Below, piece after piece: positions 590 through 5,053 of a stretch of 5,053 nucleotides of DNA (within the stretch, counting starts at the first letter, position 1; the number at the start of each line of letters is the position of its first letter). Position numbers and translations under genes: made by a program. The notes beneath the pieces were generated by a model. That model made no database searches. It saw only the letters and a program-made list of their open reading frames with translations, and was not told where the DNA came from. The DNA comes from a virus (taxonomy: Duplodnaviria; Heunggongvirae; Uroviricota; Caudoviricetes). The stretch lies in IMG/VR virus record IMGVR_UViG_2671181111_000008; one strand, 5' to 3'.

Positions 590-656
<67 letters not shown>

Positions 657-664
<8 letters not shown>

Positions 665-795
665 NNNNNNNNNNNNNNNNNNNNNNNNNNNNNNNNNNNN
701 NNNNNNNNNNNNNNNNNNNNNNNNNNNNNNNNNNNNNNNNNNNNNNNNNNNNNNNNNNNNNNNNNNNNNNNNNNNNNNNNNNNNNNNNNNNNNNN
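657..795. other. 139-nt run of N (assembly gap or masked sequence)
   Basis: Read directly. It removes the 5' end of the tRNA at 590-664 and about 130 nt of what is otherwise tRNA-cluster spacer. Confidence 1.
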
Positions 796-817
796 ACCTA
801 CTGAGCCAAGTCGGCAC

Positions 818-894
818 TGGACCGCCACCGGGGACTCGAACCTCGCACACTCAACTTAAAGGGTTGACGCTCTTTCCTGATGAGCTAGTGGCGG
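818..894 (-). tRNA. tRNA-like gene with atypical anticodon loop CCUUUAA (C33; anticodon positions read UUU); isotype uncertain
   Basis: Reverse complement folds as a cloverleaf: perfect 7-bp acceptor stem (CCGCCAC/GTGGCGG, C1-G72), D-stem GCTC/GAGC with 9-nt loop containing GG, anticodon stem TCAAC/GTTGA, 5-nt variable loop, T-arm CGAGG-TTCGAGT-CCCCG with one A-C mismatch, discriminator U, encoded CCA at 820..818. Position 33 is C rather than the near-universal U. Confidence 0.6.
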
Positions 895-895
895 T

Positions 896-971
896 TGGTG
901 GCCCTTGCTGGATTTGAACCAGCGACCTGGCGATTATGAGTCGCTCGCTCTCACCACTGAGCTAAAGGGCC
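896..971 (-). tRNA. ileZ: tRNA with CAU anticodon, tRNA-Ile2 (lysidine-type, ileZ-like) rather than tRNA-Met
   Basis: 76-nt cloverleaf: acceptor GGCCCTT/AAGGGCC, D-arm GCTC-AGTGGTGA-GAGC, anticodon loop CUCAUAA (U33, anticodon CAU), T-arm GCTGG-TTCAAAT-CCAGC, discriminator A, encoded CCA. It closely resembles my recollection of E. coli tRNA-Ile2 (ileX), and lambdoid Q-to-S regions typically carry ileZ. Confidence 0.8.
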
Positions 972-1069: not shown

Positions 1070-1100
1070 GTGGCACAAAAAACCCGCTTGTGGGCGGGTT
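1070..1100 (-). terminator. Rho-independent terminator (candidate tR-prime), bidirectional in appearance
   Basis: Stem aacccgc (1081-1087) / gcgggtt (1094-1100) with 6-nt loop. On the minus strand it is followed by UUUUUUGUG; on the plus strand by ttgtttgctttt. It lies 70-100 nt downstream of the Q-like stop. Confidence 0.6.
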
Positions 1101-1152
1101 TTGTTTGCTTTTGCCATCACGTACAAAATCGGCAAAATATCAGATTTGCATG

Positions 1153-1181
1153 AATATATGCCTTTCAATCTACTTTTGCAA
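1153..1181 (-). promoter_or_regulatory. Candidate late promoter (pR-prime-like), TTGCAA -17- TATATT, overlapping the Q-like stop codon
   Basis: On the minus strand, -35 TTGCAA (1181..1176), 17-nt spacer containing the TAG stop (1172..1170), -10 TATATT (1158..1153). The predicted start near 1146 would give a short transcript ending at the terminator at 1070-1100, the geometry expected of a Q-modified late promoter. Confidence 0.45.
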
Positions 1182-1880
1182 CACTTTGCTTTGAAAATGC
1201 CGTCTTTTTTTTGAACGTGTTCTCATTACAAACAATAAAGCCTCACTATCCAGTCGGTGAAAAATGTGTTTCATTACAACCCAGTGACCAGTAAATGTTT
1301 TGGACCAGTTTTTGGTTGTTACTCCCGCCAGTAATGCCAGCTCCTGATATTCATAACCTTCCCCACCAACCTGGTATTCATAACCTTCCCCACCAAAAAG
1401 TTCTGCTTTTACTGCCTGCGCCGCCAGCCAGATTAATTTTTTCAGGCGTTCCTGCGTTTTCCCTGCAATTTTTCTGGTACCGGATTGAGCATTAAATTCA
1501 TTCCACGCCCACTGTGTTATCGCGATCTGATATTCCCAACAAATACTCCCGCTGTAACACCACAACAACCAGGCTTTATGATGTTCTTCAAGAGACAGAA
1601 CAGCCCGCCGCCACGATGATGTCGAAAACTCAACCGGACTGACCAGAGGAATTGACGTCCCCTTCGCCAGCGATTGCTTTCCCGGGATTGGTGGATTATC
1701 CCGCGTTATCATTTTTCCAGTCACTTCATCGCGGTACCGGATTTTTTTACGCCTGTAACGCCCTGTATCGAACATGGCATTCTCTTGCCAGGCTTCAAGC
1801 TGACCTTTTGTTGCCCCACTCAAATCAGCGGTGGCGATAATGAGCTGCTCACGCACAAACTGTAAATACTGGTTATTCAT
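1170..1880 (-). CDS. Putative late-gene antiterminator (Q-like, about 236 aa), assigned mainly by synteny
   Basis: Long ORF immediately downstream of rusA and upstream of the candidate late promoter, terminator, tRNAs and holin, which is the canonical Q position. The ORF track starts at a GTG (1886); the ATG at 1880..1878 overlaps the rusA TGA stop as ATGA and is the more likely start. I do not recognise a specific Q-family motif, so the function is inferred. Confidence 0.55.
   Translation of the reverse strand: MNNQYLQFVREQLIIATADLSGATKGQLEAWQENAMFDTGRYRRKKIRYRDEVTGKMITRDNPPIPGKQSLAKGTSIPLVSPVEFSTSSWRRAVLSLEEHHKAWLLWCYSGSICWEYQIAITQWAWNEFNAQSGTRKIAGKTQERLKKLIWLAAQAVKAELFGGEGYEYQVGGEGYEYQELALLAGVTTKNWSKTFTGHWVVMKHIFHRLDSEALLFVMRTRSKKRRHFQSKVLQK
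1343..1396. repeat. Tandem 27-bp direct duplication (26/27 identical) inside the Q-like CDS, encoding GGEGYEYQ twice
   Basis: Copy 1 at 1343-1369 (cctgatattcataaccttccccaccaa) and copy 2 at 1370-1396 (cctggtattcataaccttccccaccaa). In frame, giving GGEGYEYQV-GGEGYEYQE in the protein. Confidence 0.9.
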
Positions 1881-2242
1881 GCGCACCCCAGTTCTGTGAT
1901 TTTTATCCCCAGCCGCCCACCAGGAACGAGCTGACCGCGCACAATATTGATTTCATCAAACTGCTCGTCGTCTATAAGTAGTCCAGCATGCGTCAGCGCA
2001 TCCAGCGGTGCCTTCAGGATATTGTCCAGGTCACGACGGCGCTTATCCGGTGGCTCTGCAATAATCTTTATCGCCAGCCTTCCGGACAGGTTTAATTTCA
2101 GTCGCTGCTGGCGAACAATTAGCGCCACATCACGGCGATAACGCTCACCGGCTTTTGATACAAAATATGTGCTGCCACGACGTCGCCAGTAGGTGTTCAC
2201 CGTTGGCGGGTAAGGCAAAACAAATTCTATGCGTTCGGTCAT
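1877..2242 (-). CDS. rusA: Crossover junction endodeoxyribonuclease RusA (Holliday junction resolvase)
   Basis: 121-aa ORF with clear similarity to my recollection of E. coli RusA: PDKRRRDLDN (vs RusA PDRRRRDLDN), LIDDEQ acidic pair, C-terminal GGRLGIKITELG (vs GGRLELTITEMG). ATG at 2242..2240 directly follows the upstream TAA (TAAATG). Confidence 0.9.
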   Translation of the reverse strand: MTERIEFVLPYPPTVNTYWRRRGSTYFVSKAGERYRRDVALIVRQQRLKLNLSGRLAIKIIAEPPDKRRRDLDNILKAPLDALTHAGLLIDDEQFDEINIVRGQLVPGGRLGIKITELGCA

Positions 2243-3302: not shown

Positions 3303-3581
3303 TTACCTCCAGATCCGTTGCTGGAATGTGCAGGACGGACGCGGTGGCCGTTCGGAATAAGGGAGCCTGACGAAGATTATCCAGTGACGATAATCGAGAC
3401 TGAGGGCTTTCTTAATCTCGTATCCGTGTCTGCGGTAGCGCTGAATCAGCCATTCAGCCTGTTCTTCGGTGCAGGGGTCGTGCTGATACCAGTCAGATTT
3501 GAATGCATGAGAACGCCGCCCGTGCCTGCTGGCAGGGGCGGCAGAGTTATCCGAATTGTAAAATTTGGTATCGTGCGCCAT
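3303..3581 (-). CDS. Hypothetical prophage protein (92 aa); the ORF-track 135-aa version is over-extended
   Basis: The track ORF starts at a GTG (3710) upstream of, and spanning, the hok terminator (3653-3680), so its first 43 codons are likely untranslated. The first ATG after the terminator is at 3581..3579. The stop TAA (3305..3303) sits 1 nt before the downstream GTG. No recognisable motif; the SD is weak. Confidence 0.45.
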   Translation of the reverse strand: MAHDTKFYNSDNSAAPASRHGRRSHAFKSDWYQHDPCTEEQAEWLIQRYRRHGYEIKKALSLDYRHWIIFVRLPYSERPPRPSCTFQQRIWR

Positions 3582-3652
3582 CTGTTTTCTCTGCTGGCGC
3601 AGCAGGTGCCAGTTGTTCAGGCTGACGGATGGATTGTAAACCAGAACGACCA

Positions 3653-3680
3653 GAAAAAACAAAACCCGCCGAAGCGGGTT
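3653..3680 (-). terminator. Rho-independent terminator of the hok transcript (UUCG tetraloop hairpin plus U-tract)
   Basis: Minus-strand RNA: stem aacccgc / gcgggtt (3680..3674 and 3669..3663) closed by a UUCG loop, followed by UUUUGUUUUUUC (3662..3651). Confidence 0.7.
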
Positions 3681-3748
3681 AAGTGCGGGTGCGTTGAGGA
3701 TGCCTGACACATCAGCGGTGGCGAGGGATTTCTCCCCCGCCGGGTCTC

Positions 3749-3904
3749 TTACTCCTCAGGTTCGTAAGCTGTGAAGACAGCGACCTCCGTCTGGCCGGTT
3801 CGGATTCGTACCTCGCAGAGGTCTTTCCTCGTTACCAGTGCCGTCACTATGACGGTTAAACAGATGACGATCAGGGCGATTAACATCGCCTTTTGCTGCT
3901 TCAT
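3749..3904 (-). CDS. hok: Hok/Gef-family type I toxin (51 aa), HokD/RelF-like
   Basis: Translation MKQQKAMLIALIVICLTVIVTALVTRKDLCEVRIRTGQTEVAVFTAYEPEE matches my recollection of E. coli HokD/RelF. Single N-terminal TM segment and conserved Cys. ATG at 3904..3902 preceded by AAGGAG about 9 nt upstream. The 70-aa track ORF is an in-frame upstream extension. Confidence 0.9.
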   Translation of the reverse strand: MKQQKAMLIALIVICLTVIVTALVTRKDLCEVRIRTGQTEVAVFTAYEPEE

Positions 3905-4078
3905 AGCCTGCTTCTCCTTGCCTTTCGGCACGTAAGAGGCTAACCTACATGTGTTCAGCATGGATTGAGCCTCAGATTAATGTTAAGCGTCTTGCAGGAC
4001 GCGTAATGTTAACTGGGGCTTTTCTCTATCTGCCTTTTGGTGTTCATGCCTGAGACAGATAGCCTCAAGCACCCGCAG
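3905..4078 (-). promoter_or_regulatory. hok mRNA 5' leader (tac-like 5' end, 5' stem-loop, upstream translation-initiation region)
   Basis: Minus-strand sequence gcttgaggctatctg...cagatag...agcctcttac...gcaaggagaag...ATG parallels the plasmid R1 hok leader as I recall it. The 5' segment (about 4078..4063) is complementary, with one bulge, to the 3' UTR segment (about 3700..3685), the fold-back arrangement characteristic of hok mRNAs. Confidence 0.5.
3975..4075 (+). ncRNA. Candidate Sok-like antisense RNA region (ends not determined)
   Basis: By analogy with hok/sok, the antitoxin RNA is transcribed antisense to the hok leader, starting near the upstream initiation region and running toward the hok mRNA 5' end. 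The plus strand here carries weak -10 candidates (TAATGT at 3978-3983 and 4004-4009) and the complement of the hok 5' stem-loop. I could not fix a clean promoter or terminator. Confidence 0.3.
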
Positions 4079-4080
4079 TC

Positions 4081-4109
4081 ATTCTACTTAACTAAGATTT
4101 CCCTGCAAA
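4081..4109 (-). promoter_or_regulatory. Candidate sigma70 promoter of hok mRNA (TTTGCA/TTGCAG -16/17- TAGAAT)
   Basis: On the minus strand, -35 TTGCAG (4108..4103), 16-nt spacer, -10 TAGAAT (4086..4081). Predicted start near 4074, just upstream of the gcgggtgcttgaggct leader segment. Confidence 0.5.
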
Positions 4110-4163
4110 CCGTTTTTGTCCGGCACAGTAAATATCCAACTAAACCAATAGCGTTCGCTGTAT

Positions 4164-4343
4164 TTACCGCCAGTATTCAATGCACATGACCGCCATGAAC
4201 ACCCCTAAAAAAAGGGCATTTATATGTCCAAACATTAATATCAAAACATCAATTTTTTCCATATACCTTGCTGTGAAGATGATGGGCATACATGATGCGA
4301 ACAACCAGAACGCAACAAACAAAAACTGCAATGCGTTTTTCAT
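4164..4343 (-). CDS. Possible small hydrophobic (two-TM) protein, 59 aa, in an AT-rich island
   Basis: Internal ATG (4343..4341) of the 72-aa track ORF is preceded by AGGGGGAATA, an acceptable SD about 5 nt upstream. Product MKNALQFLFVAFWLFASCMPIIFTARYMEKIDVLILMFGHINALFLGVFMAVMCIEYWR has two hydrophobic stretches. AT-rich DNA readily produces spurious ORFs, and an overlapping antisense ORF exists. Confidence 0.25.
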   Translation of the reverse strand: MKNALQFLFVAFWLFASCMPIIFTARYMEKIDVLILMFGHINALFLGVFMAVMCIEYWR

Positions 4344-4555
4344 TATTCCCCCTACAATCAATGTGCAATAACATTTAAACACACCTCAATTTGGCCGGAC
4401 ATATAAATATCTAAACCAGAAAAAATCACTTACATAGCGTTACAAACTCTTTAGTCTAAATACTCATCGTAAAACATTCCCCATACTTATCAGTCCGTTC
4501 CGCGCCAGGTAGCTTATTGCCTTATCTGGCAACCTATAATCAGGTTTCCGCTTTT

Positions 4556-4978
4556 TCAGTTGGCTGGTCGTTTAACCGACATAGTTAACCCATTAATCTG
4601 GTTGCCGGATGCTGGTGGATTTTCGCGTTTTAGTTGTTCATAAAAGTGCACAGCTTTAACCAGTTCTTCTGATGTAACCGGGACTGGTGGGGCAGTGAAT
4701 AAGGCCTGAATTTCATAGTTCGGCCTGTCGTTACAATCCTCTTTTTTCGGTACATATTTCCAGTCACCAACCCACAACTCCCCCTGAGAGTCCATAACAC
4801 CTTTTTTCACGTAGCGATATCGCCACGCTATCGGCTCTGCTTCCAGCGATGCCCGTGCAATTTTGAATAACTCGCCCTCTACTCGCGCCATCCCTGAATT
4901 GGGGTGGCATTTCGTAATCGCTATTTTTAATTTGGCTTCTTCGATTAATTGTTCTTTTGTTAATTCAGTCATTTTCAT
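4556..4978 (-). CDS. Hypothetical protein (140 aa), unknown function
   Basis: ATG-initiated ORF (4978..4976) of normal GC content and non-repetitive composition, same orientation as the rest of the prophage genes. I recognise no motifs. The IS1 end lies 9 bp upstream of its start codon. Confidence 0.6.
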   Translation of the reverse strand: MKMTELTKEQLIEEAKLKIAITKCHPNSGMARVEGELFKIARASLEAEPIAWRYRYVKKGVMDSQGELWVGDWKYVPKKEDCNDRPNYEIQALFTAPPVPVTSEELVKAVHFYEQLKRENPPASGNQINGLTMSVKRPAN

Positions 4979-4987
4979 TACCGCCCT

Positions 4988-5053
4988 GGTAATGCTGCCA
5001 ACTTACTGATTTAGTGTATGATGGTGATTTTAAGGTGCTTGCGTGGCTTCCAT
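4988..5053 (+). mobile_element. Left end of an IS1-family insertion sequence (divergent isoform), truncated by the window edge
   Basis: ggtaatgctgccaacttactgatttagtgtatgatggtgattttaaggtgcttgcgtggcttccat aligns with my recollection of the IS1 left end (GGTGATGCTGCCAACTTACTGATTTAGTGTATGATGGTGTTTTTGAGGTGCTCCAGTGGCTTCTG), with about 8 mismatches in 66 nt. Confidence 0.85.
5043..5053 (+). CDS. insA: Start of IS1 insA (partial, runs off the window)
   Basis: GTG GCT TCC AT.. at 5043 onward corresponds to the InsA N-terminus M-A-S of IS1, at the expected distance from the left inverted repeat. Only 11 nt are in the window. Confidence 0.45.

What the first reader, a model, noticed from the sequence alone, without database searches (positions are those of the whole stretch)
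3653..4109. Complete hok/sok-type toxin-antitoxin module in the prophage nin region, not attached to relBE
The Hok protein looks like HokD/RelF, which in E. coli K-12 is recalled as the third gene of relBEF without its own regulatory elements. Here there is no relBE-like ORF upstream. Instead the locus has its own promoter, an R1-like leader, complementary 5' and 3' segments, and a UUCG-loop terminator. That points to an autonomous, possibly active, type I TA unit that could stabilise the prophage or act in abortive infection.
Basis: partly seen in the sequence, partly recalled or inferred. Interest (0 to 1): 0.6.

Follow-up and report, generated by a model that had tools for sequence, protein, structure and literature searches.

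The report
Intact prophage hok/sok toxin-antitoxin locus
This is a complete, textbook hok/mok/sok RNA-controlled toxin-antitoxin cassette in a lambdoid prophage; it is real, but the same cassette occurs in about 72% of complete E. coli genomes, and a near-identical copy (hokW-sokW of phage 933W/Sp5) has already been shown experimentally to work.

Summary
On the minus strand of 3655-4109 lies a complete hok-family type I toxin-antitoxin locus:
- a promoter;
- a 170-nt leader that matches the Rfam hok/sok model (118.9 bits);
- an in-frame mok ORF;
- a 51-aa hok ORF, 100% identical in DNA to K-12 hokD;
- a 3' segment that pairs with the 5' end;
- a UUCG-loop terminator;
- a convergent Sok antisense gene on the plus strand.

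There is no relBE upstream. K-12 homology stops 14 nt before the hok ATG.

The interpretation (an autonomous and probably active module) is supported, but it is not new. The leader is 97% identical and the Sok region 99% identical to hokW/sokW of phage 933W/Sp5. That locus was annotated in the 933W GenBank record AF125520 and shown in 2021 to be a working toxin-antitoxin pair that speeds lysis on prophage induction.

3927 of 5426 complete E. coli genomes carry at least 80% of this 457-nt locus. Five sequenced lambdoid phages have it at the same place, upstream of DUF968-RusA-Q. K-12's relBEF arrangement is the exception.

Verdict: already known, low interest.

The parts
4081..4109 (-). hok/mok mRNA promoter: -35 TTTGCA (4109..4104), 17-nt spacer, -10 TAGAAT (4086..4081). 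The inferred start is G at 4074.
   Evidence: Consensus scan, the only hit in 3560-4260. The -10 is conserved in 933W. The start site is inferred from position 1 of the Rfam model.
3655..4074 (-). Full-length hok mRNA, about 420 nt.
   Evidence: Fold at -173 kcal/mol, z=-7.8, closed by 5'/3' pairing. An R1-type hok mRNA has the same architecture, as does the five-locus consensus fold.
4063..4074 (-). 5' element (tac): GGGUGCUUGAGG. It pairs with the 3' element in the full-length RNA. Once the 3' end is removed it forms a local 5' hairpin instead.
   Evidence: Conserved in 933W, a P1-like plasmid and hokC; U-A is replaced by C-G in the R1-type locus.
3899..4074 (-). Leader matching Rfam RF01794 ('sok'; the model is in hok-mRNA sense). 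It contains hairpin 1, the Sok-target hairpin, the mok start region and the hok Shine-Dalgarno.
   Evidence: 118.9 bits against a gathering score of 59, E=1.4e-27, model positions 1-157 of 157. 97.1% identical to the 933W hokW leader.
3749..3961 (-). mok ORF (70 aa). ATG at 3961, GAGG Shine-Dalgarno 8 nt upstream, in frame with hok and sharing its stop codon.
   Evidence: ORF list. The first 63 residues are identical to the annotated MokW of 933W; the four differences fall in the last seven, the Hok C-terminus.
3749..3904 (-). hok ORF (51 aa): MKQQKAMLIALIVICLTVIVTALVTRKDLCEVRIRTGQTEVAVFTAYEPEE.
   Evidence: 156/156 nt identical to K-12 hokD and 47/51 aa identical to HokW. Pfam HOK_GEF 81.6 bits. 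Annotated hokD in RefSeq genomes.
3918..3946 (+). Sok promoter: -35 TTGCCT (3918-3923), 17-nt spacer, -10 TAACCT (3941-3946).
   Evidence: Read directly from the sequence. Identical in 933W/Sp5, where mutating this -10 with primers YO-421/422 abolished the antitoxin effect. It is too weak a consensus match to pass the simple scan.
3953..4025 (+). Sok antisense RNA, about 71-73 nt: a single-stranded 5' tail complementary to the mok start region, then a long hairpin and a U-run.
   Evidence: Maps onto the annotated sokW of 933W. 77/78 nt identical, and the single difference falls in the hairpin loop. Fold at -31.8 kcal/mol, z=-4.8.
3687..3699 (-). 3' fold-back element (fbi): CCUCAACGCACCC, complementary to the 5' end.
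   Evidence: It is retained in K-12 hokD, although K-12 has lost its pairing partner.
3655..3680 (-). Intrinsic terminator: 7-bp stem, UUCG loop, U-run.
   Evidence: Shared with K-12 hokD but not with 933W.

Best explanation
This is a functional hok-family type I toxin-antitoxin cassette: the intact form of hokD, equivalent to hokW-sokW. It sits in the early (replication-to-Q) operon of a lambdoid prophage.

Inferred mechanism, taken from the R1 hok/sok and Sp5 hokW/sokW paradigms:
1. A constitutive promoter makes a stable mRNA of about 420 nt.
2. This mRNA is translationally silent because its 3' element pairs with its 5' end.
3. Slow 3' trimming removes that clamp, and the 5' end refolds into a local hairpin.
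4. The mok start site and the Sok target then become accessible.
5. The short, unstable Sok RNA is made convergently from the plus strand. It pairs across the mok start region (mRNA nt 51-124), blocks mok translation and, through coupling, hok translation. The duplex is cleaved by RNase III.
6. When Sok supply stops, Hok is made, inserts in the inner membrane and depolarises or kills the cell.

In the closest studied relative, the trigger is prophage induction, and the result is earlier lysis and about twice as much phage release.

Shown here: the sequence elements, the folds and the homology. Inferred: transcription, processing, toxicity and the trigger.
For: - Protein and RNA family hits.
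- Promoter and terminator.
- 5'/3' closure in the minimum-free-energy fold, z=-7.8.
- Refolding of the 5' end into a local hairpin when the 3' end is removed.
- Same architecture in an R1-type hok mRNA and in a five-locus consensus fold. In that fold 17 pairs keep pairing through changes on both sides, including one in the 5'/3' clamp.
- Sok fold: single-stranded tail plus hairpin plus U-run.
- Leader 97.1% and Sok region 98.7% identical to 933W hokW/sokW; Hok 47/51 aa identical to HokW and identical to K-12 HokD.
- Experiments on hokW-sokW (PMC8621323): HokW is toxic; sokW expressed from its own promoter neutralises it; mutating the -10, which is identical here, abolishes protection; sokW RNA disappears and HokW appears on RecA-dependent induction; deleting the locus halves phage yield.
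- Conservation: at least 80% of the locus is present in 3927 of 5426 complete E. coli genomes.
Against: - No expression data exist for this particular copy.
- The Sok promoter is a weak consensus match and did not pass the simple scan.
- The host prophage looks partly decayed in the nearest genome: Q is frameshifted, and the portal and terminase genes are pseudogenes. An induction-linked role may therefore be moot in that host.
- The C-terminal residues differ from HokW (FTAYEPEE against FVDYESEK).
Confidence: 0.85

Rival explanations
1. The locus is structurally intact but physiologically inert. Both RNAs are made and Sok always wins. The cassette persists as a selfish hitch-hiker that recombines between phages, giving no benefit to phage or host.
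For: [quoted passage not shown] The homology shared between different contexts is limited to the cassette itself: window 3677-4117 with 933W and 3687-4077 with P1-like plasmids. That fits a mobile unit. Deleting hokW-sokW had no effect on growth without induction.
Against: The 97-99% identical hokW-sokW regulatory region gave measurable phenotypes on induction. All regulatory elements are strongly conserved across about 72% of E. coli genomes, and pairs are kept through compensatory changes. Both argue for selection on function.
Confidence: 0.25
2. Its main role is to stabilise the prophage (post-segregational killing of cells that lose it), or to abort infection by other phages.
For: R1 hok/sok stabilises plasmids and reduces T4 plating (summarised in PMC8621323). 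hok genes are about four-fold enriched in prophages.
Against: Neither role has been shown for the hokD/hokW subfamily. In Sp5 the locus helped the resident phage rather than blocking phages. hok is not enriched next to defence systems (bioRxiv 10.1101/2025.08.07.668861; section heading, discussion).
Confidence: 0.3
3. It is a decayed remnant like K-12 hokD: a hok ORF without working regulation.
For: RefSeq annotates only 'hokD' here, with no mok or sok. The CDS is identical to the K-12 copy.
Against: The leader, the Sok gene and the promoter are all present and 97-99% identical to a working locus. K-12 homology ends at 3918, so this copy has exactly the part that K-12 lacks.
Confidence: 0.03

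Closest known systems
hokW/mokW/sokW of Stx2 phage 933W and Sakai prophage 5 (GenBank AF125520; Takada et al. 2021, PMC8621323)
   Same: Leader 165/170 nt identical. Sok region 77/78 nt identical, including the -10 that was tested experimentally. The first 63 of the 70 mok residues are identical. Hok is 47/51 aa identical. Same 5'/3' clamp sequences.
   Different: - Four of the last eight Hok residues differ.
- The promoter region is only 78% identical.
- 933W lacks the UUCG terminator; homology ends just after the 3' clamp.
- The location differs. In 933W the locus is near attR, beyond the tail genes. Here it is between the replication genes and DUF968-RusA-Q.
hokD (relF) of the E. coli K-12 Qin prophage, third gene of relBEF
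   Same: Coding sequence 156/156 nt identical. 3' UTR, 3' clamp and terminator about 97% identical. Same downstream neighbours: a Rem-like ORF, DUF968/YdfU and Q.
   Different: K-12 homology stops 14 nt upstream of the hok ATG. The promoter, 5' clamp, mok and Sok are replaced by relE-relB. The window has the complete locus and no relBE.
hok/sok (parB) of plasmid R1 and R1-type IncF plasmids
   Same: Same parts in the same order. Same 5'/3' closure of the full-length mRNA, followed by a terminal hairpin. The antisense RNA covers the mok start, not the hok start.
   Different: Hok is only about 40-45% identical. (Takada et al. report 44% for HokW against R1 Hok.) The leader aligns only in part, about 70% over 45% of its length. 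From my own recollection, and not checked here, mok is out of frame with hok in R1, whereas here it is in frame. The replicon is a plasmid, where the role is post-segregational killing.
hokC/mokC (gef) chromosomal locus
   Same: Identical 5' clamp and hairpin-1 sequences, in-frame mok, and about 83% DNA identity over hok plus the proximal leader.
   Different: Core-chromosome location between dnaJ and nhaA. Different Sok-target hairpin and terminator.

Membership tests
[quoted passage not shown] | Small (about 50 aa) Hok/Gef-family membrane toxin ORF | tested here: met
   Pfam PF01848 at 81.6 bits against a cut-off of 22. PHROG 251 at 114.7 bits. Identical to K-12 HokD. The NCBIfam Hok models are hit only below their curated cut-offs: 48.5 against 73 and 40.2 against 89.
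[quoted passage not shown] | Overlapping upstream mok reading frame whose start region, rather than that of hok, is the antisense target | tested here: met
   ATG at 3961 with GAGG 8 nt upstream, in frame with hok. The Sok region 3953-4025 covers mRNA nt 51-124, which includes the mok Shine-Dalgarno and AUG (nt 102-116) but not the hok AUG (nt 171).
[quoted passage not shown] | Leader RNA with the conserved family structure | tested here: met
   Rfam RF01794 matched full-length at 118.9 bits against a gathering score of 59. Hairpin 1 keeps its pairs through compensatory changes across five loci.
[quoted passage not shown] | Long-range pairing of the mRNA 5' end (tac) with a 3' element (fbi), followed by a terminal hairpin | tested here: met
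   12 pairs with one bulge in the minimum-free-energy fold. Kept in the consensus fold of five loci, with one U-A to C-G double change. The same closure appears in the R1-type mRNA.
[quoted passage not shown] | Cis-encoded convergent antisense RNA (Sok) with its own promoter, a single-stranded 5' tail and a terminator hairpin | tested here: met
   Promoter TTGCCT-17-TAACCT and a 71-73-nt RNA with a tail-hairpin-U-run fold. 77/78 nt identical to sokW, which has been detected by Northern blot. Expression of this copy was not tested.
[quoted passage not shown] | Toxicity of Hok and its neutralisation by Sok; 3' processing of the mRNA | not testable with these tools
   Shown for hokW-sokW (PMC8621323). 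Inferred here from sequence identity.
relBEF-type hokD (K-12 arrangement) | relB-relE immediately upstream, co-transcribed with hok, and no hok leader | tested here: not met
   No RelB/RelE ORF in 4110-5053. In the nearest genome the only RelB/ParE-like pair is 5.5 kb away on the other strand and is unrelated in sequence to K-12 RelBE.

The most novel reading that the evidence does not exclude
The hok cassette may be wired into early phage transcription.

Here, and in five sequenced lambdoid phages, it lies co-oriented inside the replication-to-Q (PR) operon. In 933W it lies co-oriented downstream of int, across attP, so it would be reached by PL transcription only after excision and circularisation.

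Antiterminated read-through on induction would then run head-on into the Sok promoter and silence it. It would also supply extra hok-sense RNA. This could explain the unexplained RecA- and induction-dependent disappearance of sokW RNA reported for Sp5.

Nothing in my data tests transcription. Only the gene orientations are shown.
Probability: 0.25. Interest if true: 0.4.

Novelty: already known. Interest (0 to 1): 0.1.

Why it matters
It matters little as a discovery. The locus type is annotated as mokW/hokW/sokW in the 933W GenBank record AF125520. It is recognised by Pfam, Rfam and PHROGs. It is catalogued as enriched in prophages (bioRxiv 10.1101/2025.08.07.668861). A 97-99% identical regulatory region has been characterised experimentally (PMC8621323).

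There are two useful points:
- Routine annotation (PGAP) labels only 'hokD' and omits mok and sok. A reader who knows only K-12 could therefore wrongly assume the gene is an orphan.
- This copy shows what the K-12 relBEF-hokD fusion was derived from.

If the read-through idea were right, it would give a concrete mechanism for how induction triggers Hok.

Tried and rejected
- Degenerate-leader hypothesis: rejected.
- Is a relBE operon hidden nearby? The nearest genome has a RelB/ParE-family pair 5.5 kb away on the opposite strand. It shows no meaningful similarity to K-12 RelB or RelE (local alignment scores 20 and 25), so it is unrelated to the relBEF story.
- The simple sigma-70 scan did not find the Sok promoter. 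I accepted the promoter only because the identical sequence was tested by mutation in Sp5.
- The sub-threshold Rfam isrK hit on the hok 3' end (3659-3740, 27 bits against a gathering score of 50) was treated as terminator-hairpin resemblance, not as a separate sRNA.
- The TadA editing site. The Tyr47 codon UAC followed by G (the UACG motif) is present, and the CDS is identical to K-12 hokD, which is reported as edited (PMC5630033). A local fold of the site showed no distinctive hairpin (z=+1.2), so I make no structural claim.
- The hydrophobic 59/72-aa ORF upstream (4164-4382) has no family hits. Its differences between homologues are mostly non-synonymous. I did not accept it as part of the module.
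- Pedersen and Gerdes 1999 was not available in the library. Its conclusions are cited second-hand, through.

Full report
**What is in the sequence**

All parts of a hok-family locus lie in the canonical order on the minus strand between 4109 and 3655.

- Promoter. A sigma-70-like promoter (TTTGCA, 17 nt, TAGAAT; 4109..4081) is the only such match in 3560-4260.
- Leader. From the inferred start at G4074, the first 176 nt match Rfam RF01794 over the whole model at 118.9 bits (gathering score 59, E=1.4e-27). That model is labelled 'sok' but is written in hok-mRNA sense and ends at the hok AUG.
- mok. It starts at ATG 3961, has GAGG 8 nt upstream, and runs in frame into hok.
- hok. It spans 3904..3749 (51 aa) and hits Pfam HOK_GEF (81.6 bits) and PHROG 251 'MokW-like host killing' (114.7 bits).
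- 3' UTR. It contains CCUCAACGCACCC (3699..3687), complementary to the 5' end GGGUGCUUGAGG. It ends in a 7-bp hairpin with a UUCG loop and a U-run (3680..3663).
- Sok. On the plus strand, TTGCCT (3918-3923), a 17-nt spacer and TAACCT (3941-3946) precede a 71-73-nt antisense RNA (about 3953-4025). This RNA folds as a single-stranded 5' tail, a long hairpin and a U-run (-31.8 kcal/mol, z=-4.8). It covers mRNA nt 51-124. That stretch includes the mok Shine-Dalgarno and AUG but not the hok AUG.

**Folding**

- The 420-nt transcript folds at -173 kcal/mol (z=-7.8; 0 of 100 shuffles as stable). The 5' and 3' elements pair to close the whole molecule.
- When the last 47 nt are removed, the 5' end instead forms a local hairpin with nt 19-29. 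This is the kind of rearrangement the R1 model requires.
- An R1-type hok mRNA, whose Hok matches the R1 sequence as I recalled it, shows the same closure followed by a terminal hairpin.
- I made a consensus fold of five loci: the window, 933W, a P1-like plasmid, an intact hokC and the R1-type locus. It keeps the 5'/3' clamp and hairpin 1. 17 pairs are maintained through changes on both sides, including U-A to C-G within the clamp. Five sequences is a small sample. The result agrees with the published family model but does not prove it independently.

**Comparison with known loci**

- K-12 hokD. The coding sequence is 156/156 nt identical, and the 3' UTR and terminator are about 97% identical. 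K-12 homology ends at about window 3918, 14 nt upstream of the hok ATG, and relE lies beyond that point.
- 933W hokW/sokW. The leader is 165/170 nt identical and the Sok region 77/78 nt identical; the single Sok difference falls in a hairpin loop. The 933W GenBank record annotates mokW, hokW and a 71-nt sokW at the corresponding positions.
- In short, this window holds the intact form of the hokD locus, with a hokW-type regulatory half.

**Is relBE nearby?**

No RelB or RelE ORF lies between the locus and the window end. In a 99.8-99.9% identical chromosome (E. coli FDAARGOS_944), the genes upstream of hok are phage early genes of unknown function and replication genes. The only RelB/ParE-like pair there is 5.5 kb away on the other strand, next to the repressor. 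It is unrelated in sequence to K-12 RelBE.

**How common is it?**

- 4938 of 5426 complete E. coli genomes match some part of the 457-nt locus, and 3927 have a place that covers at least 80% of it. K-12 strains cover only 58%.
- 79 phage records match.
- The sequenced phages vB_EcoS-640R1, mEp460, Tritos, vB_EcoM-606R7 and Evi carry hok at the same place, upstream of and co-oriented with DUF968/YdfU, RusA and Q.
- Homology shared with other contexts is confined to the cassette: window 3677-4117 with 933W and 3687-4077 with P1-like plasmids. The second interval runs exactly from the 3' clamp to the transcription start. The transcribed core therefore moves as a unit, while promoters and terminators are exchanged.

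**What is known experimentally**

Takada et al. 2021 (PMC8621323) reported the following for the Sp5 copy:
- HokW is toxic.
- sokW expressed from its own promoter neutralises it.
- Mutating the sokW -10, which is the same TAACCT as here, abolishes protection.
- RNase III and Hfq contribute to the antitoxin effect.
- sokW RNA disappears and HokW appears in the inner membrane after RecA-dependent induction.
- Deleting the locus delays growth arrest and halves phage release.

A 2025-26 preprint (10.1101/2025.08.07.668861) catalogues 44,248 Hok homologues and finds hok about four-fold enriched in prophages. K-12 hokD mRNA is reported to be edited by TadA at the Tyr codon corresponding to Tyr47 here (PMC5630033). 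The UAC-G motif is present in this identical coding sequence.

**Mechanism**

The best-supported explanation is a working hok/mok/sok module. The full-length mRNA is locked by the 5'/3' clamp and is activated by 3' trimming. Sok blocks mok and hence hok translation. Hok is released when Sok supply fails.

The sequence elements, the folds and the homology are shown here. Transcription, processing, toxicity and the trigger are inferred from hokW-sokW and R1.

As for biological role, helping lysis on induction is the only one shown for this subfamily. Prophage stabilisation and abortive infection remain possible but untested. Intact chromosomal hok loci have failed post-segregational killing tests. 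In the nearest genome the prophage also looks partly decayed, so an induction-linked role may not apply in that host.

**A speculative extension**

In all nin-region copies, hok is co-oriented with the early rightward operon. In 933W it is co-oriented with the leftward operon across attP, and so would be reachable only after circularisation. Antiterminated read-through colliding with the convergent Sok promoter could explain why sokW RNA vanishes on induction. This rests on gene orientation alone.

**Verdict**

K-12's relBEF-hokD fusion is the unusual case.

Noticed in passing
window 1343-1396 (within the Q gene, 1170..1886, minus strand): A 27-nt in-frame tandem duplication (2.0 copies, 96% match) repeats GGEGYEYQ inside the Q antiterminator ORF. 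In the 99.9% identical genome FDAARGOS_944 the Q gene is annotated as frameshifted.
   Followed up: partly
window 1077-1150, minus strand: A hairpin plus U-run lies immediately downstream of Q, with weak sub-threshold Rfam isrK/isrJ hits (22-25 bits). The fold has z=-2.8. It is probably the late-promoter leader and its terminator.
   Followed up: partly
window 601-971, minus strand (N-masked at 657-795): A tRNA cluster lies between Q and the holin gene: tRNA-Lys(UUU), a CAT-anticodon tRNA and a partial third tRNA at the edge of the mask. The homologous genome has Gly-Thr-Lys-Ile at this position.
   Followed up: partly
window 4110-4550: An AT-rich stretch (34-40% GC), unannotated in the RefSeq relatives checked, lies just upstream of the hok promoter. 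It holds a hydrophobic 59/72-aa ORF (4164..4382, minus strand; GGGGGA before ATG 4343). The ORF has no Pfam, NCBIfam or PHROG hit. It is intact in relatives, but the differences are mostly non-synonymous.
   Followed up: partly
window 3677-4117 against 933W; window 3687-4077 against P1-like plasmids: Homology with copies in unrelated contexts stops at the functional edges of the cassette. With P1-like plasmids it runs exactly from the 3' clamp to the transcription start. Promoters and terminators are swapped while the transcribed core is kept.
   Followed up: partly
L001 (933W) 2460-2530, downstream of hokW: 933W/Sp5 hokW lacks the UUCG terminator found here and in K-12. Homology ends right after the 3' clamp, and the next gene (L0136) follows on the same strand. 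The 3' end of hokW mRNA must therefore be formed differently.
   Followed up: no
L002 (FDAARGOS_944) 14848-15332: The same prophage carries a RelB/ParE-family type II pair next to its repressor genes. It is unrelated in sequence to K-12 RelBE.
   Followed up: yes
Rfam RF01794: The Rfam model named 'sok antitoxin' matches the hok-mRNA sense strand and ends at the hok AUG. A hit therefore marks the hok leader, not the strand that encodes Sok.
   Followed up: yes
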